A stretch of 64,000 nucleotides of DNA from a virus (IMGVR_UViG_3300032007_000003:184029-248028); one strand, 5' to 3'. Numbered from the stretch's first letter, positions 45-28,103 are shown. Translations and numbers: made by a program. Notes: generated by a model not told the origin, from the sequence alone.

Positions 45-3000
45 ATGACATATAACATGTCATACTCAAATGCAGGAAACGGAATACAAAATGGTCTTAT
101 AGATTCTGATGGTTTTATTACAAAGTATGAACTTGATGATATGAATAATCGTTCAATGTTTGCAACATTGAACCATGTAGGCTTTGTACCACAACCATAT
201 CTTGATGAAATAGGTGCTGAATATACTACACAAGTTGAGGATGAGAATACTACGTATCTTGTACCAAAGTTCAAATACATATTCCCAACTGATTTCGATG
301 GTAGAATGCAAGGTCCAATGAGCGAATATAAGGCTGATTTTGAACAAGCGATGTATGATGAACAAGATGAGGCTTACCTAACATTCAGATTCGGTGCTGA
401 AAACCCAAATAAGCTTGGAGAATATCATGGTAGAGTAAGACATTTCTATCATGCTAAACCTAGTGAATATCATATGCCATTATATAATAACTCATTCTAT
501 TTCTACTTTGGCATAAATAAGGGTAATACCGCAATCGATAAGTTCAATAACATGTTCTTGGCTGAATGTGTGCAGAATAACAAAGACCCATTTTCTCTTG
601 ATATTGAACCAAAGGGAAAATCATATTGTGCTTGCCCATATACACAAAACTTTAAAAAAGATGCTAATGCTTATATTAGGGTTATTCTAGATGATATACA
701 AACACCATTCTCATATTCTTTATATGACTCAGTTGGTAACGTGGTTGTGACTGAAGTTAAAATGACAGCTACGACATTTACCATTGGAGATATTAATGAT
801 GGAGGTAAGGTTAAATACCAATTGCCAAAGGATGATGATGGAAATCCAGAAACGCCAAAAGTTTATGAAGCTGTTGAGAATGATTATGGACTCAATGGTT
901 TAACAAACCAAATATATACTTTGACAGTTATTGATGATAATGGTAAGAAGATTTCTAGAAAAGTTGAATTAGATATGCCAAAGATGTCATTCACTTATGC
1001 GTCATATAAACTTGGCACTAAATTTTATAATACTAAGGCTTCTAGAATGAGTCACATCTGTGATGAGGAAAGTGACTTATATGGTAGAATCGTATTGAAT
1101 GATTTCTCTGTGGACGGAATGACTTGCGATTTAGATTTTGACATTCCAGATGAAGTAAGTGGTGTAACTTCTTTCATTCCTTATCCTTACCCACCTGTTT
1201 ATAATGAAAGTGAGGACGAATTTGTAATGGTTGTTCCATTAAAGGTTGATATAACAGTGGAAGGACAAGAAGAAAAGGTTACTAAGTTTAAAACAGATGA
1301 TAATATAAGTTCTGGAGGATGTTATGTATATCTAACCATAAAGTCCATGCAATCTGAACATGTTGGAAATGTAAAAAATTGTTTCTGTGATGGTGTACCA
1401 CCTAGAATAAAAGCGTTTAAAAAAAGTGACATAAAGTATATACAAATTGACGTATATCAGCCGAAGAGGTATGTTATATCAATGTATCAAGTGTGTGATG
1501 GAAAAGTTATATCAGACAACTCTCATTCTGAAATAATTAGAGTATTCAATGGTGAAAACTTTAATACATTCTTGAATGAAATGCCAACAAAGTTTATGCT
1601 TGGTACAAATAATGATGATAAGGATGCAACTATATCAAATAGAAGTTATTTTTACAGTAGTGAATTGATTGAAAATGCTACTGATAGGCACATATGCGGT
1701 TGGTTTGGTGTTCACCAAGAGGATTCATATCAGTTCTCTAGGTCAGAATTACAGACTCGTGCTGAAAACAAGATTATATGGGATGATTTTATTAACTTCA
1801 AAGGTGGGGATATAACAACACCTTACTCAAAATCATTAATACTTGCATTTAAGTTTAGAAGAATGTTCAGTTTATCAGATGCTGTGTATTCGTCTTATGA
1901 GTTTGTATTCCGTGCTGTTGGTGGCGTACAACCAACATTGTACAGAAGCGTTATACCAACATATGATGATTTGCAGAAGGCAAGTTATCTATGCAGATTG
2001 GATGACGTTAATACAGCTAGTGTTCCAAAGGAATACCCGCAGATTATTGGATATAACTACTATCGTGATAGTAGATGCCATACTGCTCCAGAACTTAACC
2101 ACCCATTGCTTAATCTACATGACGATGACCATGAATGTTATGGACAGTATGGTTTTTATGCAGACACAGCAGTTGGGAATTATTTTGCAGCGTTTAGTAA
2201 CAATGGCGGCTATAAGAATAGGAAGGAACTTGACCTTGGAATGCTAGCATTAAGAAGTCCTAGTTTTGCATCCGTCAGCCCTATTGGTAGTAATGGTGGG
2301 GGAAATTCTAGACCAAAAGAAATGGGTAAAAAAGTTGAAAACACTATTGGTGAGTTTAGTTTGGTTTTTATGAAGGGTTGGCAAGGTTTGAATGGAGATA
2401 AACAAAGAACCACTCAACCATATCTTAGGGCAATGACAGTAGATAGAAGATTGGATTATGACTTAGTATTCTTAGGACCAGTTGTTGGTTCTAGCTTCAG
2501 TTTATATGAAAATCCTACTATAAGTGGTACTACTTATGATAAGGATAGAACTTGGAAGGGAGCACGCATATGTGGTACTATATATGGTGGTATTGAGATG
2601 TCCTACGATTCCAATTATAATATTATAAGTGCTGATACAGTTTATAATGAAGAATCTGGTGATGTTATAAGTGCATCTGCTAATACATTGTTAGAGTATA
2701 GTTATGTAATGCCAGAAGGAAACCAAGACGTTTATACTATATATAACTATGCCAATGTTTCCGATGTAATTTGGGAAAGAGATATAGATAGTGCATCTAC
2801 CTCTAATATTGGCACAATAAATAAACGACTATATGAGGCAGAATTGTGCGGTGTTGACATAAGAGATTATTTCTGGTCAAGCTTTAATCGTAATAGACTT
2901 TGTAGATATATCGATAATGAACAAAATATTGGATTAGAGGCACTGAGAACATCTCCAAATCCATATATATTTAGATATCCATATGAGCAAGTAAATTCTT

Positions 3001-4469
3001 ATAATGGAGACTTCAATAGGGAAAATGCAATAAGGGCAAATAATTATCCAACAAAGAGATTTATTGATGTATGTAATATACTACCAATGAATTATTATGA
3101 TTTTATATTAACATCGTGTTCTTATGGAAATTCTCAAGTAACAATAAATGAGGATGGAACAATCACCAATGAGATTAGAGGTGATGAATCCATAAATCTT
3201 GATTTGGGCTTTGATAGGGTTGCCGAGTTCCAATCACCATCAAGTGAGAACAAGAATCTAGGAAATGTTGAGTATGTAATTAATGGTAGCTCTGATGGAT
3301 ATCATGTATTCATAGCAAACACAGCAAATATTGCGTTTACCCTAAGCACGAAAAGTGCAGATGGTTTTAATATATACACAGCAACACCTAAATTAATTAG
3401 AGTGTTACCTTATACGCAAACTAGCAAAGGAGATTTGGATGGTATTACATACATTAAGTCAACAAGTCCAAATGGTGAAATTTCCACTAATAAAACATTT
3501 GTGGATGCGATATCAAATGTTACATTTTATTCTTTTGGCGGTAATGCTAGTTTTCTAATATTCTCTAACCATTCTGGAGATGTTATAGTACCAGAAGGAT
3601 ATCAATTTAGAATTATCAATGTTGATAATCCAATAGAACTATTTTCGCAAGATGCTAGAGCTTACTTATATGACACAACTGAAAACCGTTTAGTGACATC
3701 TGATGAACCAGTGTTTGGAAATGTAGTTTATACGAAGTCGCTTAATTCTGATGAATTTAGGAGTATTAAGGCGTTTTCAGTAATGACTGAAAGCCATTAC
3801 AAAAACGCTTCTAACGAGAACCTAATTCATAAGATTAAAACTTATGAATTCAGTGAAATTATTGATACTAGAAATGTTTTACTTAAGTTTACGAACATAG
3901 GACTTAGCGGTGAAGTTGTGAGTTATGTAGAATTAAGAAATTTGGATACTGAAGTTGAAATTGAAGAAGAAATTGAGGAACTTGTACCTGAAGAAATTGT
4001 GACTGAGGAAACTGAAGAAGGAAGTGGAACATCTAAGATGTATATACAAGGCCTTGCATTTGAAATGTGTATAAAAACAACTGGAGACCCAAGTTTTGAT
4101 GTGTCTAACCAAGTATTTGCTAGTTTCAGCATGATGTCGTTCTCATTCATGTTCAGAAGAGATGGACAAGAAGATGAAAACTTTGTGTCATGTAATGACG
4201 TTAGTGTTTTAAGCGAACTTGATGAACAAGGTTATCCATTAGACGGTAAACTTAAGCTTTTGTTTAAGATGCGCTGGCCACAAGACATGGGCACTATGTG
4301 TGATGATTCTAATCCTAGTGGAAGATGGAAGTGTTATATGTTAGCAAGAACAAGTTCTGGTTTCTCTTATAAATTTGGAGAATTTACATTACAAGCACAG
4401 CCACAGTCAATGCCTACTACACCAGGTGTCGAAGGACGTATAATAACAAATGTACAGATGATGAATTGA
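45..4469 (+). CDS. Very large putative virion structural (tail/baseplate) protein, 5'-truncated by the window
   Basis: 1474-aa ORF. The frame stays open upstream to base 3 (INAERLAELGVNLDM), so the true start lies before the window. First of a tightly overlapping run of giant AT-rich ORFs. Confidence 0.6.
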   Translation: MTYNMSYSNAGNGIQNGLIDSDGFITKYELDDMNNRSMFATLNHVGFVPQPYLDEIGAEYTTQVEDENTTYLVPKFKYIFPTDFDGRMQGPMSEYKADFEQAMYDEQDEAYLTFRFGAENPNKLGEYHGRVRHFYHAKPSEYHMPLYNNSFYFYFGINKGNTAIDKFNNMFLAECVQNNKDPFSLDIEPKGKSYCACPYTQNFKKDANAYIRVILDDIQTPFSYSLYDSVGNVVVTEVKMTATTFTIGDINDGGKVKYQLPKDDDGNPETPKVYEAVENDYGLNGLTNQIYTLTVIDDNGKKISRKVELDMPKMSFTYASYKLGTKFYNTKASRMSHICDEESDLYGRIVLNDFSVDGMTCDLDFDIPDEVSGVTSFIPYPYPPVYNESEDEFVMVVPLKVDITVEGQEEKVTKFKTDDNISSGGCYVYLTIKSMQSEHVGNVKNCFCDGVPPRIKAFKKSDIKYIQIDVYQPKRYVISMYQVCDGKVISDNSHSEIIRVFNGENFNTFLNEMPTKFMLGTNNDDKDATISNRSYFYSSELIENATDRHICGWFGVHQEDSYQFSRSELQTRAENKIIWDDFINFKGGDITTPYSKSLILAFKFRRMFSLSDAVYSSYEFVFRAVGGVQPTLYRSVIPTYDDLQKASYLCRLDDVNTASVPKEYPQIIGYNYYRDSRCHTAPELNHPLLNLHDDDHECYGQYGFYADTAVGNYFAAFSNNGGYKNRKELDLGMLALRSPSFASVSPIGSNGGGNSRPKEMGKKVENTIGEFSLVFMKGWQGLNGDKQRTTQPYLRAMTVDRRLDYDLVFLGPVVGSSFSLYENPTISGTTYDKDRTWKGARICGTIYGGIEMSYDSNYNIISADTVYNEESGDVISASANTLLEYSYVMPEGNQDVYTIYNYANVSDVIWERDIDSASTSNIGTINKRLYEAELCGVDIRDYFWSSFNRNRLCRYIDNEQNIGLEALRTSPNPYIFRYPYEQVNSYNGDFNRENAIRANNYPTKRFIDVCNILPMNYYDFILTSCSYGNSQVTINEDGTITNEIRGDESINLDLGFDRVAEFQSPSSENKNLGNVEYVINGSSDGYHVFIANTANIAFTLSTKSADGFNIYTATPKLIRVLPYTQTSKGDLDGITYIKSTSPNGEISTNKTFVDAISNVTFYSFGGNASFLIFSNHSGDVIVPEGYQFRIINVDNPIELFSQDARAYLYDTTENRLVTSDEPVFGNVVYTKSLNSDEFRSIKAFSVMTESHYKNASNENLIHKIKTYEFSEIIDTRNVLLKFTNIGLSGEVVSYVELRNLDTEVEIEEEIEELVPEEIVTEETEEGSGTSKMYIQGLAFEMCIKTTGDPSFDVSNQVFASFSMMSFSFMFRRDGQEDENFVSCNDVSVLSELDEQGYPLDGKLKLLFKMRWPQDMGTMCDDSNPSGRWKCYMLARTSSGFSYKFGEFTLQAQPQSMPTTPGVEGRIITNVQMMN

Positions 4470-21495: not shown

Positions 21496-21522
21496 TATAT
21501 GATTACCAAAAGAATTGGTTAT

Positions 21523-22842
21523 ATGAGGAAAATAATGCTTTTGTTATGCGCATTCGTAACATTGACAGCCAATGCACAAAGGGTATCAGAGATTGAAGCC
21601 TTTAAGAAGGCTCAGAAGTTCTTGAATGATAAGAAACTGAAAGCACCACGTGCAACAACTCGTGGTGAAGAGGTCTATAACCCCTATTATATCTTCAATG
21701 CGGAGGATGGTAAGGGTTGTGTCATCATCAGTGGTGATGAGAGACTACCAGAGGTTCTTGCGTATTCAAAGGAAGAGTCTATTGATGAGAATAACCTTCC
21801 AGAAGGTTTGGAAGAAATATTGCCAATATTAAAAACAAGAGGTAGCACTAGGGGAGAGACATATGGAGAAATACCATCAGAGTATGTTCCAAGGAATACG
21901 ACACCAATACCTTGTCTGATGGACTACGTATGGAAACAAGGCTCACCATTGAATCAATATTGCCCAATACTTTATGAGGAAGGCTCTAGGTCAGATATTC
22001 ATGCACTTGTTGGGTGTGTACCTCTTGCAATATCAGAAGTGATGGCGTTTTTTAAATATCCAGATAGTGTGGATGAATTTGTTACATCATACACAGTTCA
22101 AAAAGAAGGTGAAGTTTTCTCTGAGTCTTCTTATATAAGGGATGTAACAGTTCCATATACAGAATTTAAATGGAATCTGATAAGAAATGAGAAATATAAT
22201 GGTTATACTTGGTCTGATGAAGAGGAAAAGGCTGTTGCAGAATTGTGCTATCATGTTGGACGTGCATTTGGGGCAAATTATGCACCTAGCAATACTTGTG
22301 CAAATTCCATGCAATATTATTTTGATTGGGAGATTATTATGAAGGACATCTACAAGTATGATGAAGTAAAATTCCTTGGCGGTGAATGGATACAACATAC
22401 AGATTATTGGGAATATATTCCTATTCCAGATGAAGATTATTGGAACTTTCTTGATTCGTACTTAGAGAGGGGCGTTCCAGTTGTGGTTGGTGGCGGTGGT
22501 CATGAATTCGTTATTGACGGACGTGATGATAAAGGCATGTATTGTTGGATTGATAAACACCTATATGTTATTTTGCAGCCAAGTTTATGGGAGAAAATAG
22601 GTGATAGTGGTGCATTGGTTAAATATAATAAAAAATTACACATGTTAGCTTTTATTCCTCCAAAGGAGCATACATACAGATATACACCAAAGCAAACGAC
22701 AACAGCAATCAATTCCGTTGAGGTTAAGAAGGATTATGATGGGTTTGTGTATAATCTCCAAGGACAAAAGGTCAGCAATACGCTTGAAGGATTGCCCAAG
22801 GGGGTATATATCAAGGATGGAAAGAAATATCTTGTTAAATGA
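21523..22842 (+). CDS. Secreted peptidase C10 (streptopain/interpain family) with Spi-like prodomain and T9SS-like C-terminal tail
   Basis: Signal peptide MRKIMLLLCAFVTLTANA|Q; prodomain YYIFN...GCVIISGDERLPEVLAYS; WKQ; catalytic GCVP (Cys 22015-17) and GGHEFVIDG (His 22501-03); tail VYNLQGQKV...KGVYIKDGKKYLVK. Confidence 0.8.
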   Translation: MRKIMLLLCAFVTLTANAQRVSEIEAFKKAQKFLNDKKLKAPRATTRGEEVYNPYYIFNAEDGKGCVIISGDERLPEVLAYSKEESIDENNLPEGLEEILPILKTRGSTRGETYGEIPSEYVPRNTTPIPCLMDYVWKQGSPLNQYCPILYEEGSRSDIHALVGCVPLAISEVMAFFKYPDSVDEFVTSYTVQKEGEVFSESSYIRDVTVPYTEFKWNLIRNEKYNGYTWSDEEEKAVAELCYHVGRAFGANYAPSNTCANSMQYYFDWEIIMKDIYKYDEVKFLGGEWIQHTDYWEYIPIPDEDYWNFLDSYLERGVPVVVGGGGHEFVIDGRDDKGMYCWIDKHLYVILQPSLWEKIGDSGALVKYNKKLHMLAFIPPKEHTYRYTPKQTTTAINSVEVKKDYDGFVYNLQGQKVSNTLEGLPKGVYIKDGKKYLVK

Positions 22843-22849
22843 AAATATT

Positions 22850-22881
22850 AAAAGAGTAACTAGCGTAGTTACTCTTTTTTT
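22850..22881. terminator. Bidirectional intrinsic terminator
   Basis: AAAAGAGTAACTA-gcg-TAGTTACTCTTTT, between convergent genes. Confidence 0.8.
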
Positions 22882-23345
22882 ATGTTATGATTAATTTCTC
22901 CAATAACATCACTAAACTCTTTTAATCTAAAATTGTAGTCCTCAATAAGTTTTTTCATCATATCTTGGTCATATATTCTACCATTACTATTTTTCGCATC
23001 AAAACTTGCTTTCATTGGCACAATTCTAGCATTGAAATAAAACGGATTATCTTTCAAAGACTCTATCACTTTTGTTTTATCCTCGCAGATGCTCTTAAAA
23101 GCCTCTGTATCGTCTTCAGATAGTTCAAACCATTCACCTATAAGGTTCTTCTCTTTGAAGTGATTGTGGAGCATTTTTTCAAGTTTGAAAGGATGTTCAG
23201 TTTCAAATGACTCCTTGATATAGAGTTCTGATGAACTTCCAGTCTGAAGCTGTTTTAGCCTCTTATTTACGTTTTTTGCCCTCGTAGAGCCAATCTTATA
23301 GTTGGTGTTATTTCCAACTTCTCCAATTAAATAAACATATCCCAT
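22869..23345 (-). CDS. T5orf172/MUG113 (GIY-YIG-like) domain protein with C-terminal extension
   Basis: GYVYLI...YKIGST...KRLKQLQTG...LEKMLHNHF...GEWFEL. Confidence 0.75.
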   Translation of the reverse strand: MGYVYLIGEVGNNTNYKIGSTRAKNVNKRLKQLQTGSSSELYIKESFETEHPFKLEKMLHNHFKEKNLIGEWFELSEDDTEAFKSICEDKTKVIESLKDNPFYFNARIVPMKASFDAKNSNGRIYDQDMMKKLIEDYNFRLKEFSDVIGEINHNIKKE

Positions 23346-23383: not shown

Positions 23384-23392
23384 ATATTTATA
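23384..23392 (+). promoter_or_regulatory. Putative phage late-class promoter ATATTTATA
   Basis: About 20 nt upstream of the ATG; the motif recurs before several other genes (see findings). Confidence 0.45.
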
Positions 23393-23412: not shown

Positions 23413-26400
23413 ATGAGACATGCAAAATTATTTAATAATCACTCTGAATACGAGGCATATATGGCAGGGAATAACGTAGCTTTGCCAGTTGTGTCATGGT
23501 GTATATTAGAGGAAGAACCACATTTTAACCCTTATATTTTAGAGACTAAAATGGTAGCTAAGTTTAATGTTACTAGTACAAGTGAACCAACAAGAATTAT
23601 AGGTATTTTTAAAGGTTCTATCTATCATGCATCGTCTATAGAGATTGATGGCGTTGAGCAACCAAGTGTGGTAACTGGTTATACTTTTAGTACAACTGGT
23701 ATACATACCGTTAAATATACGTTGGCAGATGATAGTACATTTTCAACTATGCTTGCGTTTTGTACCGATATGACTGAGGTAACTATACCAAATACAGTCA
23801 CAAGTATACATAGTAGCGCTTTACAAGGTTGTAGTGGTCTTACAAGTTGTACAATAGGCAGTGGCGTAATAACTATTGGTGATTCTATTTTTAGTAATTG
23901 TACCAATCTTGCAAGTATAGTTATAAATGATAGTAACGTGGTATATGATTCACGTGATAATTGCAACGCTATTATAAAAACTAGCACTAATGAGTTAGTT
24001 GCTGGTTGTAAAAACACTATTATACCAAGTAGTGTCACAAGTATTGGTAATAGTGCTTTCATAGGTTGTAGTAGTCTTACGAGTATAAATATACCAAGTA
24101 GTGTTACAAGTATTGGTGATTATGCTTTTGTTACGTGCAATGGTCTTACAAGTATGAACATTCCAAGTAGTGTTACAAGCATAGGTGATTGTATTTTTGG
24201 TAGTTGTAGTAGTATTTCAAGTATAACTGTTAACAGTAATAACAGTATATATGATTCACGTGATAATTGCAATGCTATTATAAAGACTAGTACCAATGAG
24301 TTAGTTGCTGGTTGTAAGAACACTATTATACCAAGTAGTGTCACAAGTATTGGTGATTATGCTTTTTATAGTTGTACTAGTCTTACAAGCATAGACATTC
24401 CAAGTGGAGTTACAAGTATTGGTGAGCAAGCTTTCTATAATTGTAGTGTTCTTAGTAGTATAACCATACCTAATAATGTTACAAGTATTAATCATCAAGC
24501 TTTTAGAAGCTGTAATGCTTTGGAAAGTGTTGAGATTTCAGATGGTGTAGAAACAATAGGTGTTGGAGTATTTGACTATTGTGATTCTTTGACTGATGTT
24601 ATAATAGGTACTGGCATCACTAGTATAGGAAGTTCATCATTCTATGGAAGTAATAATCTAGAAAGCATAACTATTCTTGCAACAACTCCTCCAACATTAG
24701 GAAGTGAAATGTTTACAAGCAATAAATTCACAATTTATGTTCCAGCAGAAAGTGTTAGTACATATAAAGCAGCAGATAGGTGGAGTAATTATAGCGATAG
24801 AATACAACCATTGGGCTGTACACCAGGGCATGTATATACTCTTATTGGAAACCCTACATACCCATCAACAGTTGCAGCAACTGCAACGTCATTTCAAATG
24901 TCATTTGATTATGATGATGTTTACACATCCCCTGCTTGTGAAAGTTCAACCACAAGTGGTAGCAGTACCGTATTAGTTACAATAACAGCAAATCCTACAA
25001 CATCTGCAAGAACCATAAGTGGGTCTTATGACTTCGATGGACTGAGTGTACCATATAGTCTTACACAAGAAGGACAGTCAGATTCACCTTACTCGCAGCA
25101 ATATCTTACGTTTGAAGTAATTGAAGGTGGCGAAATAAGATGGACTGCAAAAAGTGGTTTAACTAAAACTATTTCATATAGTAAAGATAATGGCTCTACA
25201 TGGACAGAGATAACATCAGTAGCATCTGGTACTCCTATTAGTGTAAGTGCAGGAGACAAGGTTCTATTTAAGGGAAATAATGCTCAATACGCATCTGCTA
25301 AAGACACGGGTTCTTGTTTTAGTGGTGGTACAGCTCAATATAATGCATATGGTAATGTAATGAGTCTTATTGGTGGTGATAATTTTACTGGATTGACAGC
25401 TTTTACTCAAGATTGGGCACTTCACAATTTGTTTAGTAAATCTAAAGTTGTCTCAGCAAAGAATCTAATTCTTCCAGTAGTGACACTTACAAATTGTTGT
25501 TATCGTGGTATGTTTGCAAATGCCACTGGACTTACAGAAGCACCAGAAATCCCAGCAACAACATTGGCAACAAGTGCTTGTTGTTATATGTTTGAAAACT
25601 GTGCAATAACTAAAGCGCCAGAACTCCTAGCACTAACAGTTCCATCATTTTGCTATAGAGGTATGTTTACTGGTTGTACTAGTCTTAACTACATTAAATG
25701 TCTAGCAACAAATATTTCTGCTAGCAATTGTATACAAGATTGGGTGGTAAATGTTTCGCCAAGTGGTACATTTGTTAAAAATCCAAATATGAATGGATGG
25801 CCAAGGGGTAATAGTGGCATACCTACAAACTGGATATTAATTGATGATGGTACACCTGATACACCTATAATTAATTTTAACGGGCTAGAAATTGAATTAT
25901 TATGCAACACTCAAGAGGCTAGTATATATTACCAATTAAATCATAGCGGTAGTTATTCATTATATAGTACACCAATATTAATAAATTCTGATACATTTAT
26001 TGAATGTTATGCAGAAAAGGATAGTTTATCAAGTATTACAACAAGCATGACTTGCGAGTATGATAGTAGAACTATATATGAATATTCAAATGAAGTCATT
26101 AGTTCATGGACATATAATAATAGTGCAATAACAACACCTTATTCTGTTAATGCAATAGATGGACATTCTAGTAATTATGCTAAGGGTACGTTTAATTTTG
26201 AAACGAGTGTTAATCTTCGTCAAGCAGAACCAACATATTTGTGGTTTCAACACGCTGACCAATCAGCATCAATATATGTTGACAACACATTAGTAGAAAA
26301 ACACTGGGGAGGTTATGCTGCATTTACAGTTGATTTGACAAATCATGTTCATAAGGGAACAAATAATATCAAGGTAGCCTTGAAAAATAATGAGGGCAAC

Positions 26401-28050
26401 TATCTTGCTCCAGCAGCGGGTGACTTTAACTTCAATGCAACTCTTGGTAACGTGAAATTATTCACAAGTCCATATGTACCTGCAATGAGTTATGGATATG
26501 ATGGCTTCCATATCACGTCAACAGTGTCTTCAGCAGAGGCTACAATCTATGTCAAGACTGCAATACCTACTGGTGCTACAGTAACATGCACAATCAGTGG
26601 AACAAACTGTAATTATACAGCAACAAGTGCTAGTACTGGGGCTGAAATGATATTTACAACAACTATTACAAACCCTCGTCTTTGGAACGGTACGATTGAC
26701 CCATATTTGTATACTGTAAAACTTGATATATCTCACAACAATGAGTTGTATCATAGTTATACTAGACCTTATGGTTTGAGATTCTTCGAATACGTAATCA
26801 ATGATACTGAGAAATATGGAACGGCTGGAAATCCTTATACTGGATTCTTGCTTAATGGTCAACCATATCTATTAAGAGGTGTATGTGCGCACGATGACTT
26901 AGCAAATAAAGCAAACGCACTTAATGATACCGATTATACACAAGAATTCAATATCATAACTGAGTTGGGATGTAATTTCTTACGTCTTGCTCACTATCCT
27001 CACCCAAAAGAGGTATATGATAAGTGTGACCAACTTGGTATAGTGGTACAGACTGAAGCACCTTGGGTAAACTCATCAACCACAGGTATGCCAGAATCTT
27101 ATTGGACTCACCTTGAAACCCAGATGAGTGATATGGTTAATCAACATTATAATCACCCTTGTATTCTGTTCTGGGGTGTAGGTAATGAGATTAACACATC
27201 AGTAAGTTCTGGTGATGAAGGAAAGAATTTTGTTAAAAATAAAATTGAAGGTTATAGAAGTACAATAAGAACATTGATACCAGACGCATTGGTTGGATAT
27301 ACAGTAAGTCACAGTACACAAAATGCTTTAGGAGCATTTAATTATCCTACAGTAGATTGGGTTGGTAATAACATATATGTCGGTTGGTATATTAATCAAG
27401 ATTCAAATAACCCAACTAGTAGACTTAATACTGCAATAAATAATGCTACTGGTCATAGTATACCTTGTGCGTTCACTGAGTATGGTTGTGGTGGTACACA
27501 ACGTTGTCATTCAGATGACTTTATGACAACAACCACGAGGGGTAATAACCCAAGACACGACATTGAATATATGATGTGGCTACATGAAGGTCATATTGCG
27601 GCAATTAAGAACAAACCAGAGTTGCTATTCACATCACAGTGGCAGTTATTTGATATTGCAGTTTGGAATAGACAAGAAGGATATAAAGTGTGCTTGGATG
27701 ACGTAAACGTGACTGATGATAACAATCTAAAGTTCCTCAATAACAAAGGTCTTGTTGAAAGAGACCACGTTACAAAGAAGGATACATTCTATTTGTATAA
27801 GGCATGGTGGAATCCTACTCCATTCGTACATATCTGTGGAAAAAATTACACAAAAACAACTAGCAGAGTCATCAAGTGTTATACTAATGAAAGTGGTACA
27901 TTTAATTTATATGTAAATGGAAATCAAACCCCAGTTGCAACAGCAACAGCATCTAACAATATAGTAGAATTTGCTGAAACTAACTTCAGTAGCGGGGATG
28001 TTATAAGGGTAGATGGTACAACTACTAGTGATACATTTACGTTTGATTAG
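23413..28050 (+). CDS. BspA-type LRR / Ig-like / glycoside hydrolase family 2 fusion; putative virion adhesin-glycosidase
   Basis: LRR_5 repeats (IPSSVTSIGDYAF.GC..L); Ig-like modules; second LRR type (YMFENC..TKAPELLA); CHB/HEX-like module; GH2 from about 26070 with LLNGQPYLLRGV, FLRLAHYPH, FWGVGNE (Glu 27187-89), AFTEYGCGG (Glu 27478-80), KGLV...KKDTFYLYKAWW. Confidence 0.85.
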   Translation: MRHAKLFNNHSEYEAYMAGNNVALPVVSWCILEEEPHFNPYILETKMVAKFNVTSTSEPTRIIGIFKGSIYHASSIEIDGVEQPSVVTGYTFSTTGIHTVKYTLADDSTFSTMLAFCTDMTEVTIPNTVTSIHSSALQGCSGLTSCTIGSGVITIGDSIFSNCTNLASIVINDSNVVYDSRDNCNAIIKTSTNELVAGCKNTIIPSSVTSIGNSAFIGCSSLTSINIPSSVTSIGDYAFVTCNGLTSMNIPSSVTSIGDCIFGSCSSISSITVNSNNSIYDSRDNCNAIIKTSTNELVAGCKNTIIPSSVTSIGDYAFYSCTSLTSIDIPSGVTSIGEQAFYNCSVLSSITIPNNVTSINHQAFRSCNALESVEISDGVETIGVGVFDYCDSLTDVIIGTGITSIGSSSFYGSNNLESITILATTPPTLGSEMFTSNKFTIYVPAESVSTYKAADRWSNYSDRIQPLGCTPGHVYTLIGNPTYPSTVAATATSFQMSFDYDDVYTSPACESSTTSGSSTVLVTITANPTTSARTISGSYDFDGLSVPYSLTQEGQSDSPYSQQYLTFEVIEGGEIRWTAKSGLTKTISYSKDNGSTWTEITSVASGTPISVSAGDKVLFKGNNAQYASAKDTGSCFSGGTAQYNAYGNVMSLIGGDNFTGLTAFTQDWALHNLFSKSKVVSAKNLILPVVTLTNCCYRGMFANATGLTEAPEIPATTLATSACCYMFENCAITKAPELLALTVPSFCYRGMFTGCTSLNYIKCLATNISASNCIQDWVVNVSPSGTFVKNPNMNGWPRGNSGIPTNWILIDDGTPDTPIINFNGLEIELLCNTQEASIYYQLNHSGSYSLYSTPILINSDTFIECYAEKDSLSSITTSMTCEYDSRTIYEYSNEVISSWTYNNSAITTPYSVNAIDGHSSNYAKGTFNFETSVNLRQAEPTYLWFQHADQSASIYVDNTLVEKHWGGYAAFTVDLTNHVHKGTNNIKVALKNNEGNYLAPAAGDFNFNATLGNVKLFTSPYVPAMSYGYDGFHITSTVSSAEATIYVKTAIPTGATVTCTISGTNCNYTATSASTGAEMIFTTTITNPRLWNGTIDPYLYTVKLDISHNNELYHSYTRPYGLRFFEYVINDTEKYGTAGNPYTGFLLNGQPYLLRGVCAHDDLANKANALNDTDYTQEFNIITELGCNFLRLAHYPHPKEVYDKCDQLGIVVQTEAPWVNSSTTGMPESYWTHLETQMSDMVNQHYNHPCILFWGVGNEINTSVSSGDEGKNFVKNKIEGYRSTIRTLIPDALVGYTVSHSTQNALGAFNYPTVDWVGNNIYVGWYINQDSNNPTSRLNTAINNATGHSIPCAFTEYGCGGTQRCHSDDFMTTTTRGNNPRHDIEYMMWLHEGHIAAIKNKPELLFTSQWQLFDIAVWNRQEGYKVCLDDVNVTDDNNLKFLNNKGLVERDHVTKKDTFYLYKAWWNPTPFVHICGKNYTKTTSRVIKCYTNESGTFNLYVNGNQTPVATATASNNIVEFAETNFSSGDVIRVDGTTTSDTFTFD
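23942..24354 (+). repeat. 107-bp internal duplication in the LRR region (23942-24048 / 24248-24354)
   Basis: Identical 35-aa peptide YDSRDNCNAIIKTSTNELVAGCKNTIIPSSVTSIG; five synonymous third-position differences. Confidence 0.85.
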
Positions 28051-28072: not shown

Positions 28073-28103
28073 AAAAGGGCATCCAAATGGGTGCTCTTTT
28101 TTT
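28073..28103 (+). terminator. Intrinsic terminator
   Basis: AAAAGGGCATCC-aaat-GGGTGCTCTTTT followed by a T run. Confidence 0.75.

What the first reader, a model, noticed from the sequence alone, without database searches (positions are those of the whole stretch)
23413..28050. Giant LRR adhesin fused to an intact GH2 glycosidase: a possible bind-and-digest virion appendage
One 1545-aa ORF strings together a short N-terminal segment, BspA-type LRRs, Ig-like modules, a second LRR class, a CHB/HEX-like module and a complete GH2 enzyme (sugar-binding, Ig, TIM barrel) with both catalytic Glu retained (WGVGNE, TEYG). It has no signal peptide, has a late-type promoter and sits beside the tail fibre, so it is probably virion-mounted. 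Typical phage depolymerases are endo-acting beta-helix or beta-propeller tailspikes, whereas GH2 enzymes are mostly exo-acting beta-galactosidases, glucuronidases and mannosidases. This suggests trimming of capsule, mucin or dietary glycans coupled to protein recognition by the LRRs. This is my strongest candidate for an undescribed system.
Basis: partly seen in the sequence, partly recalled or inferred. Interest (0 to 1): 0.8.

Follow-up and report, generated by a model that had tools for sequence, protein, structure and literature searches.

The report
Jumbo-phage adhesin carrying captured bacterial glucuronidase
A 412-kb cattle-rumen phage encodes one 1545-residue protein that joins a short phage-specific N-terminal tag, a leucine-rich-repeat adhesin and an intact beta-glucuronidase-type enzyme taken from the surface enzymes of rumen Bacteroidales; it is probably displayed on the virion, but that is not shown.

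Summary
Window 23413-28050 (+) is one uninterrupted 1545-aa ORF with BspA-type LRRs, Ig-like modules and a complete GH2 enzyme. The fusion recurs in independent assemblies, so it is not a misassembly.

New findings:
1. The enzyme carries all seven residues of the beta-glucuronidase "GUS rubric", so it is GUS-type rather than a generic galactosidase.
2. Residues 560-1545 are a ~990-aa cassette, 69% identical to chromosomal, signal-peptide and T9SS-sorted surface enzymes of rumen Bacteroidales. A rooted tree indicates at least two bacterium-to-phage captures. The phage copies lost both export signals.
3. GH2 is under purifying selection among phage orthologues (dN/dS 0.12-0.16).
4. The first ~42 residues are a conserved N-terminal adaptor, with 2,558 representative clusters. 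It heads LRR, lectin and enzyme payloads in T4-like jumbo phages. In this genome it also heads a DGR-diversified lectin.
5. The gene has the promoter-like motif that also precedes the major capsid gene.

Virion display is therefore the best reading (about 0.5), but no proteomic or structural evidence exists. Rumen virome surveys already list GH2 among viral auxiliary genes. I rate it a new variant of a known kind, interest about 0.6. The scan had not noted this family on other DNA.

The parts
23384..23392 (+). ATATTTATA promoter-like motif, 21 nt upstream of the start codon
   Evidence: Genome-wide, 53 of 109 copies lie within 60 nt upstream of same-strand gene starts. It is the top 8-mer in upstream zones and also precedes the gp23-like capsid gene. 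Function as a late promoter is inferred.
23413..28050 (+). Whole ORF, 1545 aa plus stop (P0001)
   Evidence: The start is validated because the adaptor motif begins at residue 1 in all homologues.
23413..23547 (+). N-terminal adaptor, residues 1-45 (consensus M-K-Y-L-K-x-F-x-T-H-x-x-Y-E-x-Y ... L-P-N-V-S-x-C ... H-Y-N-P)
   Evidence: Alignment A1. The profile finds 2,558 representative clusters at E<=1e-3, almost all at residue 1. AF2 gives a small beta-alpha-beta-beta unit with pLDDT 82-91.
23548..23748 (+). Small beta-sandwich domain, residues 46-112, shared with adaptor-LRR proteins
   Evidence: AF2 pLDDT is 86-98.
23749..24807 (+). BspA-type LRR_5 solenoid, residues 113-465
   Evidence: Pfam LRR_5, E 3e-65. 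Foldseek matches 4fdw, 4gt6, 4h09 and 4cp6. dN/dS is 0.40, and repeat number varies among P0001, P0002 and P0003.
24808..25089 (+). Ig-like beta-sandwich linker, residues 466-559; in most phage homologues it directly follows the adaptor
   Evidence: AF2 strands at 472-551.
25090..25812 (+). Start of the captured bacterial cassette, residues 560-800: a beta-rich segment plus ~25-residue LRR/PARCEL-like repeats
   Evidence: The 69% identity with bacterial P0026 starts at residue 560. The repeats are visible in the sequence. Only weak Atlas leads support the fold.
25813..26049 (+). CHB_HEX_C_1 / Fn3_assoc-like small sandwich, residues 801-879
   Evidence: Weak Pfam Fn3_assoc hit at 827-877. PF13290 and PF13287 are recorded for homologues.
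26050..26502 (+). GH2 sugar-binding jelly-roll, residues 880-1030 (D1004 corresponds to EcGUS D163)
26503..26802 (+). GH2 Ig-like domain, residues 1031-1130
   Evidence: Pfam PF00703 at 1032-1123.
26803..27822 (+). GH2 TIM barrel, residues 1131-1470, with N1258/E1259 (acid/base), Y1322, E1356 (nucleophile) and N1443-x-K1445-G1446
   Evidence: These motifs are kept in 119 of 119 cassette homologues. dN/dS is 0.12-0.16.
27823..28047 (+). C-terminal beta-sandwich of the GH2 module, residues 1471-1545; the protein ends here, where bacterial homologues continue for ~450 aa to a T9SS sorting domain
28073..28100 (+). Hairpin plus T-run, intrinsic-terminator-like
   Evidence: 12 pairs, 5 of them G-C.

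Best explanation
The gene encodes a modular surface protein of a T4-like, 412-kb rumen jumbo phage whose host is probably a rumen Bacteroidales bacterium. The first ~42 residues are a family-wide N-terminal adaptor. I infer that it plugs the protein into a common site on the virion, in the baseplate, tail or fibre periphery. The BspA-type LRR solenoid supplies ligand binding. The C-terminal ~990 residues are a cassette captured from a T9SS-secreted surface enzyme of rumen Bacteroidales, and its GH2 domain is a complete beta-glucuronidase-type exo-glycosidase. On the particle it would remove terminal beta-linked glucuronic (hexuronic) acid from host capsule or exopolysaccharide, or from plant arabinogalactan-type glycans coating fibre-attached cells. 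That would unmask a receptor or hold the phage where hosts live. Shown here: the architecture, an intact active site under purifying selection, bacterial origin with loss of both export signals, adaptor sharing with a DGR-diversified lectin and with many LRR proteins, and a promoter motif shared with the capsid gene. Inferred: virion attachment, the docking site, the substrate and the benefit to infection.
For: Domains and catalytic motifs. The full 7-residue GUS rubric was mapped against E. coli UidA; the rubric definition comes from bioRxiv 10.64898/2026.06.20.733316. The nearest solved structures are gut FMN-binding GUS enzymes (6MVH is Roseburia hominis 2 GUS). Cassette residues 560-1545 are 69% identical to P0026 residues 30-1009, which has a signal peptide and Por_Secre_tail. 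P0026 sits among glmS-like, arginine decarboxylase and NAD-ligase genes, and P0013 occupies the same bacterial locus. In the rooted tree the signal-bearing forms are basal and paraphyletic, with phage-type N-termini in two nested, supported clades (98 and 100 SH-aLRT). Purifying selection among phage orthologues: GH2 dN/dS 0.12-0.16 at dS 0.66-0.69. Adaptor: shared by at least 15 proteins with different payloads in related phages. There are 2,558 representative clusters, and LRR_5 is present in 53 of 77 scanned. G000 has three bearers, one of them a 377-aa DGR target with 22 of 22 adenine-specific TR/VR differences. Adaptor genes sit beside tail sheath, tube or neck genes in three of three other contexts examined. 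Local context: an S74 tail-fibre gene downstream, BACON proteins, and a weak Baseplate_J hit 3 kb before the window. Synteny is conserved in two other phages. The ATATTTAT motif is shared with the gp23-like capsid gene.
Against: There is no direct evidence that the protein is in virions. No cultured phage carries the adaptor, so no proteome can be consulted. PHROGs gives no structural annotation for this protein or for the N-terminal modules of its relatives. The protein has no trimeric beta-helix or coiled coil of the kind that builds classical fibres and tailspikes, and GH2 enzymes are normally dimers or tetramers. In related phages the gene sits at non-syntenic sites, in one case next to head genes, so its place on the particle is open. 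Exo-glucuronidase activity cannot depolymerise a capsule backbone. The substrate is unknown.
Confidence: 0.5

Rival explanations
1. It is a soluble auxiliary metabolic enzyme. The protein is not part of the particle. It is made late, stays in the cytoplasm because it has no export signal, and is released at lysis. It then trims glucuronic-acid-capped plant or microbial glycans around the lysed cell. Alternatively it acts on imported glucuronides during infection to feed host metabolism.
For: GH2 is listed among auxiliary genes of rumen viruses. The cassette comes from a bacterial glycan-processing surface enzyme. Catalysis is under selection. There is no structural annotation.
Against: A metabolic enzyme would not need the N-terminal adaptor that is also used by a DGR-diversified lectin and by hundreds of LRR adhesin-like proteins next to tail genes. 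The gene sits among fibre and BACON genes and shares the capsid-gene promoter motif. Fusion to about 450 aa of LRR adhesin makes little sense inside the cytoplasm. Loss of both signal peptide and T9SS domain removes the route to the enzyme's native extracellular site.
Confidence: 0.22
2. The GH2 module serves as a glycan-binding lectin. It mainly holds on to a glucuronic-acid-bearing glycan, such as a host capsule, plant fibre or mucus-like layer, and turnover is irrelevant or very slow.
For: Phage Ig-like and BACON modules are proposed glycan-adherence devices (review PMC9853417). The protein carries several binding-type modules.
Against: Every catalytic and specificity residue is kept in 119 of 119 homologues, including about 80 phage-type ones. 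dN/dS is as low as between the bacterial enzymes. A pure lectin would tolerate loss of the nucleophile.
Confidence: 0.1
3. The N-terminal tag is a capsid-targeting or ejection signal, as in T4 internal proteins. The protein would then be packed inside the head and delivered into the cell.
For: The tag is short, strictly N-terminal and loosely reminiscent of T4 capsid-targeting sequences (from memory, not tested). In one related phage the gene lies beside head genes (L093).
Against: No conserved L/I-x-E protease site follows the tag (alignment A1). LRR adhesins, C-type-lectin DGR targets and an exo-glucuronidase are extracellular-type modules. Most contexts are next to tail genes.
Confidence: 0.05
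4. It is an artefact: a chimeric assembly, or a bacterial gene on a mis-binned contig.
For: Metagenomic origin. Close bacterial homologues exist.
Against: A zero-difference unitig bridges the junction. The same fusion in the same synteny occurs in three further assemblies. The record has a gp23-like capsid gene, two DGRs and a 137-bp terminal overlap.
Confidence: 0.02

Closest known systems
Gut bacterial GH2 beta-glucuronidases (GUS), e.g. Roseburia hominis 2 GUS 6MVH, 6MVG, 7KGZ; E. coli UidA
   Same: Three-domain GH2 core. All seven rubric residues are present (N-E, Y, E, N-x-K-G). The sequence match is end to end (E 1e-66, about 30% identity).
   Different: The GUS module is embedded at the C-terminus of a 1545-aa phage protein behind LRR, Ig and PARCEL-like modules. 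There is a 14-residue insertion before the N-x-K-G motif, and the EcGUS R562 equivalent is Leu. The NCBIfam LacZ4 equivalog scores 273 bits, far below its cut-off of 950. Activity is untested.
T9SS-secreted GH2 surface enzymes of rumen Bacteroidales (P0026, P0013 and relatives)
   Same: 69% identity over 989 residues, including the PARCEL-like repeats, the CHB_HEX-like module and the whole GH2. This is the evident source of the cassette.
   Different: The bacterial proteins have a signal peptide, about 450 further residues and a Por_Secre_tail sorting domain. They lie in a conserved chromosomal locus. The phage protein has an adaptor, LRR and Ig in place of the signal peptide, and it stops right after the GH2.
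Phage tailspike and tail-fibre depolymerases with conserved N-terminal anchors and exchangeable distal enzymes (P22, K1F, CBA120, Klebsiella jumbo phage types; from general knowledge)
   Same: A conserved N-terminal module with a variable enzymatic or binding distal part. The gene lies beside fibre genes, and several bearers occur per genome.
   Different: There is no trimeric beta-helix or beta-propeller. The enzyme is an exo-type TIM-barrel GH2 of recent bacterial origin. The adaptor is only about 42 residues and has no match to any described anchor.
DGR-diversified phage receptor-binding proteins (Mtd of BPP-1 type, C-type-lectin fold)
   Same: A paralogue in the same genome carries the same adaptor and is a textbook DGR target. 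This links the adaptor to ligand-binding surface proteins.
   Different: The LRR-GH2 protein itself has no variable region or template match.
BspA-like LRR_5 'cell surface proteins' (4fdw, 4gt6, 4h09, PcpA 4cp6) and unannotated phage LRR proteins in BFVD
   Same: The same LRR_5 solenoid.
   Different: Here it is headed by a phage adaptor and fused to an enzyme. No ligand is known for any of them.

Membership tests
CAZy GH2 | Jelly-roll, Ig and (beta/alpha)8 barrel core recognised by the family profiles | tested here: met
   PF02836 79 bits (cut-off 21) and PF00703 39.4 bits (cut-off 23). PF02837 scores 26.6 bits, just under its cut-off of 28. 120 PDB GH2 chains match, the best at E 5e-66.
CAZy GH2 | Acid/base Glu in the N-E motif and nucleophile Glu in the E-Y-G motif | tested here: met
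   E1259 and E1356 align with EcGUS E413 and E504. Both are conserved in 119 of 119 homologues.
Beta-glucuronidase (GUS rubric) | Seven residues N412, E413, Y468, E504, N566, K568, G569 (EcGUS numbering) | tested here: met
   N1258, E1259, Y1322, E1356, N1443, K1445 and G1446 in a MAFFT alignment with UidA and intermediates. The rubric is as stated in bioRxiv 10.64898/2026.06.20.733316.
Beta-glucuronidase (GUS rubric) | Hydrolysis of beta-D-glucuronides | not testable with these tools
   This needs an enzyme assay. Related hexuronidases share much of the motif.
BspA-type LRR (Pfam LRR_5) | Profile match above the cut-off and a solenoid fold | tested here: met
   218 bits against a cut-off of 27.7. 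The AF2 model at pLDDT 83 matches 4fdw, 4h09 and others.
T9SS cargo | N-terminal Sec signal peptide plus C-terminal Por_Secre_tail domain | tested here: not met
   Neither is present in P0001. Both are present in the bacterial homologues.
Classical tailspike depolymerase | Trimeric right-handed beta-helix (or beta-propeller) catalytic body | tested here: not met
   The whole length is accounted for by adaptor, sandwich, LRR, Ig, PARCEL-like repeats and the GH2 core. There are no beta-helix matches.
Virion structural protein | Presence in purified particles | not testable with these tools
   No cultured relative exists. Only context and promoter-motif evidence is available.
DGR variable protein | A variable region matching a template repeat with adenine-specific differences | tested here: not met
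   The two template repeats match only 79-233 and 407847-407950 of the genome, not this gene.
N-terminal adaptor family (defined here, alignment A1) | The ~42-residue motif at residue 1 with invariant Y13, P25 and S28 | tested here: met
   P0001 scores 71.5 bits, E 9e-21, against the profile. P0001 is one of the 17 sequences the profile was built from, so its match is partly by construction. Alignment.

The most novel reading that the evidence does not exclude
Rumen and gut T4-like jumbo phages have a plug-in display system. A ~42-residue N-terminal adaptor mounts interchangeable payloads on the particle: BspA LRR adhesins, DGR-diversified lectins and whole surface enzymes taken from the host. 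This protein would then be the first virion-borne GH2 exo-glucuronidase. It would edit glucuronic-acid caps on capsule or plant glycans rather than cutting a polymer backbone.
Probability: 0.4. Interest if true: 0.75.

Novelty: new variant of a known kind. Interest (0 to 1): 0.6.

Why it matters
If the protein is on the particle, phage-borne glycan enzymes would extend from endo-acting beta-helix depolymerases to an exo-acting, GUS-type TIM-barrel enzyme taken almost unchanged from the host's own secreted repertoire. It would also define a short, very widespread adaptor (2,558 representative clusters) as the handle by which jumbo phages of herbivore guts swap receptor-binding and enzymatic payloads. 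That handle could be used to annotate hundreds of 'hypothetical' phage proteins and to predict host-interaction genes in uncultured megaphages. It also documents repeated bacterium-to-phage capture of a ~990-aa multi-domain cassette, with replacement of the export signals. Finally, it flags a viral reservoir of beta-glucuronidase-type genes in gut ecosystems.

Tried and rejected
- Megablast of the gene against INPHARED phages found nothing. tblastn found only partial LRR or GH2 matches in unannotated faecal contigs.
- tblastn with a near-consensus adaptor found no phage record, apart from a chance hit at E=4.
- PHROGs gave only two function-unknown families for P0001 (LRR region) and nothing for the N-terminal modules of nine related GH2 proteins.
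- The single-sequence AF2 model of residues 1-560 was poor (pLDDT 59). The alignment-based model was good, but Foldseek matched only the LRR part, so the adaptor fold has no identified relative.
- Complex prediction of adaptor residues 1-112 with the conserved neighbour protein G000 2534-4339 gave no answer (score 0.00). This is not evidence either way.
- A PDB sequence search of residues 555-900 found nothing. Atlas leads were below 0.9.
- The search for related loci with the adaptor alignment or a short peptide failed or returned only near-copies.
- RNA run X24 holds only 90-97% similar fragments of the GH2 part. These may come from relatives, so no expression claim is made.
- BLAST found no paralogue of any P0001 segment in the genome. 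Only the profile search found the two other adaptor bearers.
- The Phage_sheath_1 Pfam search of the genome found nothing.

Full report
**The observation**

Window 23413-28050 (+) is a single ORF of 1545 codons with no stop. The window is bases 184029-248028 of a 412,435-bp IMG/VR virus record that CheckV rates as complete. The record has a T4 gp23-like major capsid gene at 52-54 kb. Its last 137 bases repeat its first 137, which is a circular-assembly overlap.

Pfam finds:
- BspA-type LRR_5 at 218 bits.
- All three GH2 core domains: sugar-binding 920-999 (26.6 bits, just under the 28-bit cut-off), Ig 1032-1123, TIM barrel 1145-1359.
- A weak Fn3_assoc match at 827-877.

The fusion is not a misassembly. 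A 1826-nt unitig with zero differences covers 24457-26282 (probably the source sample). Independent assemblies carry the same architecture in the same gene order: C10 protease, small T5orf172 endonuclease, LRR-GH2, then an S74 fibre or a giant protein. These are P0002 in two samples and P0003 in a third.

**What kind of GH2 it is**

The nearest solved structures are gut bacterial beta-glucuronidases of the FMN-binding group (6MVH, 6MVG, 7KGZ, 8GES). They match end to end at E about 1e-66. 6MVH is Roseburia hominis 2 GUS (PMC9377255).

I took E. coli uidA from the K-12 record and aligned it with P0001 and intermediate homologues. All seven residues of the published GUS rubric are present: N1258, E1259, Y1322, E1356, N1443, K1445 and G1446. 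So are the equivalents of D163, H330, Y472 and W549. The rubric is as quoted in bioRxiv 10.64898/2026.06.20.733316.

The enzyme is therefore predicted to be a beta-glucuronidase-type (hexuronidase) exo-glycosidase, not a generic galactosidase. Caveats:
- The NCBIfam LacZ4 equivalog scores far below its cut-off (273 against 950).
- There is a 14-residue insertion before the N-x-K-G motif.
- Activity is untested.

**Where the enzyme came from**

A search with residues 880-1545 returned hundreds of proteins of 1000-2200 aa that are 67-86% identical over the whole module. Their N-terminal parts differ widely. In species-representative genomes this tight family is confined to ruminant-gut MAGs, mostly Bacteroidales with some Kiritimatiellae and Verrucomicrobia. 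Identity then drops abruptly to about 34% for ordinary Bacteroidales GH2.

P0026 is 69% identical to P0001 over 989 residues (P0001 560-1545 against P0026 30-1009). It begins with a signal peptide and continues about 450 residues beyond the GH2 to a Por_Secre_tail (T9SS) domain. It lies among glmS-like, arginine decarboxylase, alkaline phosphatase, lacZ-like and NAD-dependent ligase genes on a 377-kb rumen scaffold. P0013 occupies the same locus in another sample.

The transferable unit is thus a ~990-residue cassette: PARCEL/LRR-like repeats, a CHB_HEX-like sandwich and the GH2.

I built a quick maximum-likelihood tree of 120 cassette sequences, rooted with the 34%-identity GH2s. Signal-peptide forms are basal and paraphyletic. 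Phage-type N-termini fall in two nested clades with SH-aLRT 98 (15 rows, including P0001) and 100 (58 rows). The minimum number of signal/adaptor changes is two. I read this as at least two bacterium-to-phage captures. The caveats are a long outgroup branch and a quick search.

In the phage copies the signal peptide and the T9SS tail are both gone.

**Is the enzyme still used?**

All 119 homologues, about two thirds of them phage-type, keep the acid/base, nucleophile, N-x-K-G and Y-x-G-W-Y motifs.

Between the three syntenic phage orthologues, GH2 dN/dS is 0.12-0.16 at unsaturated dS (0.66-0.69). This is comparable to the phage-bacterium comparisons (0.10). The LRR_5 region runs at 0.40.

Per-domain dS values are wildly uneven. 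For example, against P0002 the mid region gives 1.66 and the Ig module 0.13; against P0003 the pattern is reversed. The alleles are therefore recombination mosaics.

**The N-terminal adaptor**

BLAST of residues 1-115 against ORFs of related viral contigs showed that the first ~42 residues recur at residue 1 of proteins with quite different bodies. These include LRR_5 only, Ig plus cassette without LRR, and small Lcl_C/Fib_succ-type lectins.

A 44-position profile finds 2,558 representative clusters (E<=1e-3; 756 at <=1e-10) among 1.84 billion proteins, nearly all starting at residue 1-3. Of 77 hits of at least 200 aa, 53 carry LRR_5, 5 carry Lcl_C and 3 carry Big_2.

Four contexts were inspected. 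Three of the proteins carry the adaptor:
- P0196 lies beside a gp13 neck gene and gp32.
- P0263 lies beside tail sheath genes.
- P0150 lies beside tail sheath genes and a gp19-like tube gene.

The fourth, P0116, carries the GH2 cassette behind a different N-terminus. It lies in a 384-kb contig with a gp13 neck gene and DNA polymerase B.

With an alignment, AF2 models residues 1-560 at pLDDT 83. The model shows a small beta-alpha-beta-beta adaptor (pLDDT 82-91), a beta-sandwich, the LRR solenoid and an Ig-like sandwich. Foldseek recognises only the LRR part.

The commonest phage form of the enzyme is adaptor plus Ig plus cassette (about 1120 aa). P0001 looks like that form with an adaptor-LRR protein spliced in front. 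In L089 and L090 the two gene types are neighbours.

The cassette is also found behind at least three other kinds of N-terminus in other jumbo phages.

**Link to diversity-generating retroelements**

The profile finds three adaptor bearers in this genome:
- P0001.
- A 253-aa Lcl_C protein at 335917-336678.
- A 377-aa protein that starts at 411403 and runs across the assembly junction.

The 377-aa protein ends in a variable region (genome 79-233). That region differs from a template repeat (606-760) at 22 positions, all adenines in the template. A reverse transcriptase gene lies at 1242-2474.

A second DGR (RT 408775-409914) targets the C-terminus of a 1099-aa protein with a phage-tail-repeat hit and a fibre-type N-terminus.

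In phages, DGR targets are receptor-binding proteins (established knowledge; Mtd of BPP-1). The adaptor is therefore used on at least one protein whose job is almost certainly ligand binding at the particle surface. P0001 itself is not a DGR target.

**Expression signals**

ATATTTATA lies 21 nt upstream of the ATG. In the window alone the motif is not enriched (11 matches against 8.4 expected; 21 of 100 shuffles reach 11).

Over the whole genome, 53 of 109 copies lie within 60 nt upstream of a same-strand start, mostly 23-30 nt away. It is the commonest 8-mer in those zones. It precedes the gp23-like capsid gene, several neighbouring head-region genes and the adaptor-lectin gene. A second common upstream word, TATCTTTG, fits the Bacteroidota promoter type.

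Its timing is inferred. A strong hairpin terminator follows the stop codon.

**Mechanism and confidence**

The most economical reading is a virion-displayed, modular adhesin-enzyme:
- The adaptor docks.
- The LRR binds.
- The GUS removes terminal beta-hexuronic acid from capsule/EPS or plant arabinogalactan-type glycans.

I give it about 0.5.

The main rival is a soluble auxiliary enzyme released at lysis (0.22). It fits the catalogue-level literature, since GH2 is listed among rumen viral AMGs (bioRxiv 10.1101/2023.03.20.532305). It does not explain the adaptor, the LRR fusion or the genomic company.

A lectin-only role (0.1) is disfavoured by the conserved catalytic machinery. An internal or ejected protein (0.05) and an artefact (0.02) are unlikely.

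Nothing here shows particle association directly:
- No cultured relative exists.
- The one co-folding attempt gave no answer.
- The protein lacks the trimeric folds of classical fibres.

**Novelty**

Conserved N-terminal anchors with swappable distal modules, virion-borne glycosidases and viral GH auxiliary genes are all known kinds. Four things appear new, as far as the searches reach:
- An exo-type, GUS-rubric GH2 in this role.
- Its recent and repeated capture as a 990-residue cassette from host T9SS enzymes.
- The definition of this very widespread 42-residue adaptor.
- The adaptor's tie to DGR targets.

I class it as a new variant of a known kind, interest about 0.6.

Noticed in passing
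G000 1-2474 and 411403-412435 (outside the window; loci L111, L112): DGR-A. The template repeat is at 606-760 and the variable region at 79-233, with 22 of 22 differences at template adenines. The RT gene is at 1242-2474 and a 119-aa ORF at 863-1222 may be an accessory protein. The target is a 377-aa adaptor-bearing protein that crosses the assembly junction. The 137-bp terminal overlap differs at one A/C position that falls within the variable-region span, which suggests population heterogeneity.
   Followed up: partly
G000 404677-409914 (locus L111): DGR-B. The template repeat is at 408517-408620 and the variable region at 407847-407950, with 16 of 20 differences at adenines. The variable region is at the C-terminus of a 1099-aa protein with a fibre-type N-terminus. 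That N-terminal ~100 aa recurs on other large proteins and on small ORFs that precede GH2 genes in other phages. The RT gene is at 408775-409914.
   Followed up: partly
window 21499-22842 and 22869-23345: A C10 (streptopain-family) protease with a Spi prodomain and a small T5orf172/MUG113 homing-endonuclease-like gene lie immediately upstream. The trio of protease, endonuclease and LRR-GH2 is conserved in two other phage assemblies (L108, L116).
   Followed up: partly
whole genome G000; window 23384, 28114, 46677, 54904: There are two upstream word classes: ATATTTAT (57 copies in 60-nt upstream zones, including the capsid gene) and TATCTTTG/ATCTTTGC (33 copies, Bacteroidota promoter type). This suggests a phage-specific promoter class and a host-type promoter class.
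   Followed up: partly
L024 / L100 (ONIZ01000001.1 and IMGVR_UViG_2799112330_000002, both 410,106 bp): A contig filed under a 'Firmicutes' rumen MAG in the species-representative genome set has the same length and the same match coordinates as an IMG/VR jumbo-phage record. A megaphage has apparently been binned into a bacterial MAG.
   Followed up: no
window 23808-24445: Contigs from four runs show many 'goes back' and 'skips' joints inside the LRR-coding repeats (for example 24128 to 23827 in two studies). This is either repeat-number heterogeneity in the population or cross-mapping from paralogous LRR genes at 90% likeness or more.
   Followed up: no
L007, L010, L015, L028, L029, L031: The same cassette (56-63% identity) occurs in Kiritimatiellae and Verrucomicrobia MAG contigs behind different signal peptides, in proteins of 1400-2500 aa. 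The cassette has therefore also moved between bacterial phyla in the ruminant gut.
   Followed up: no
G000 2534-4339 and homologues in L081, L083, L087-L090: A 601-aa protein with no family match is 62-73% conserved. It sits at the downstream end of the arrays of adaptor-bearing genes in six phage loci and has the ATATTTAT motif. It is a candidate assembly or docking factor, untested beyond one inconclusive co-fold.
   Followed up: partly
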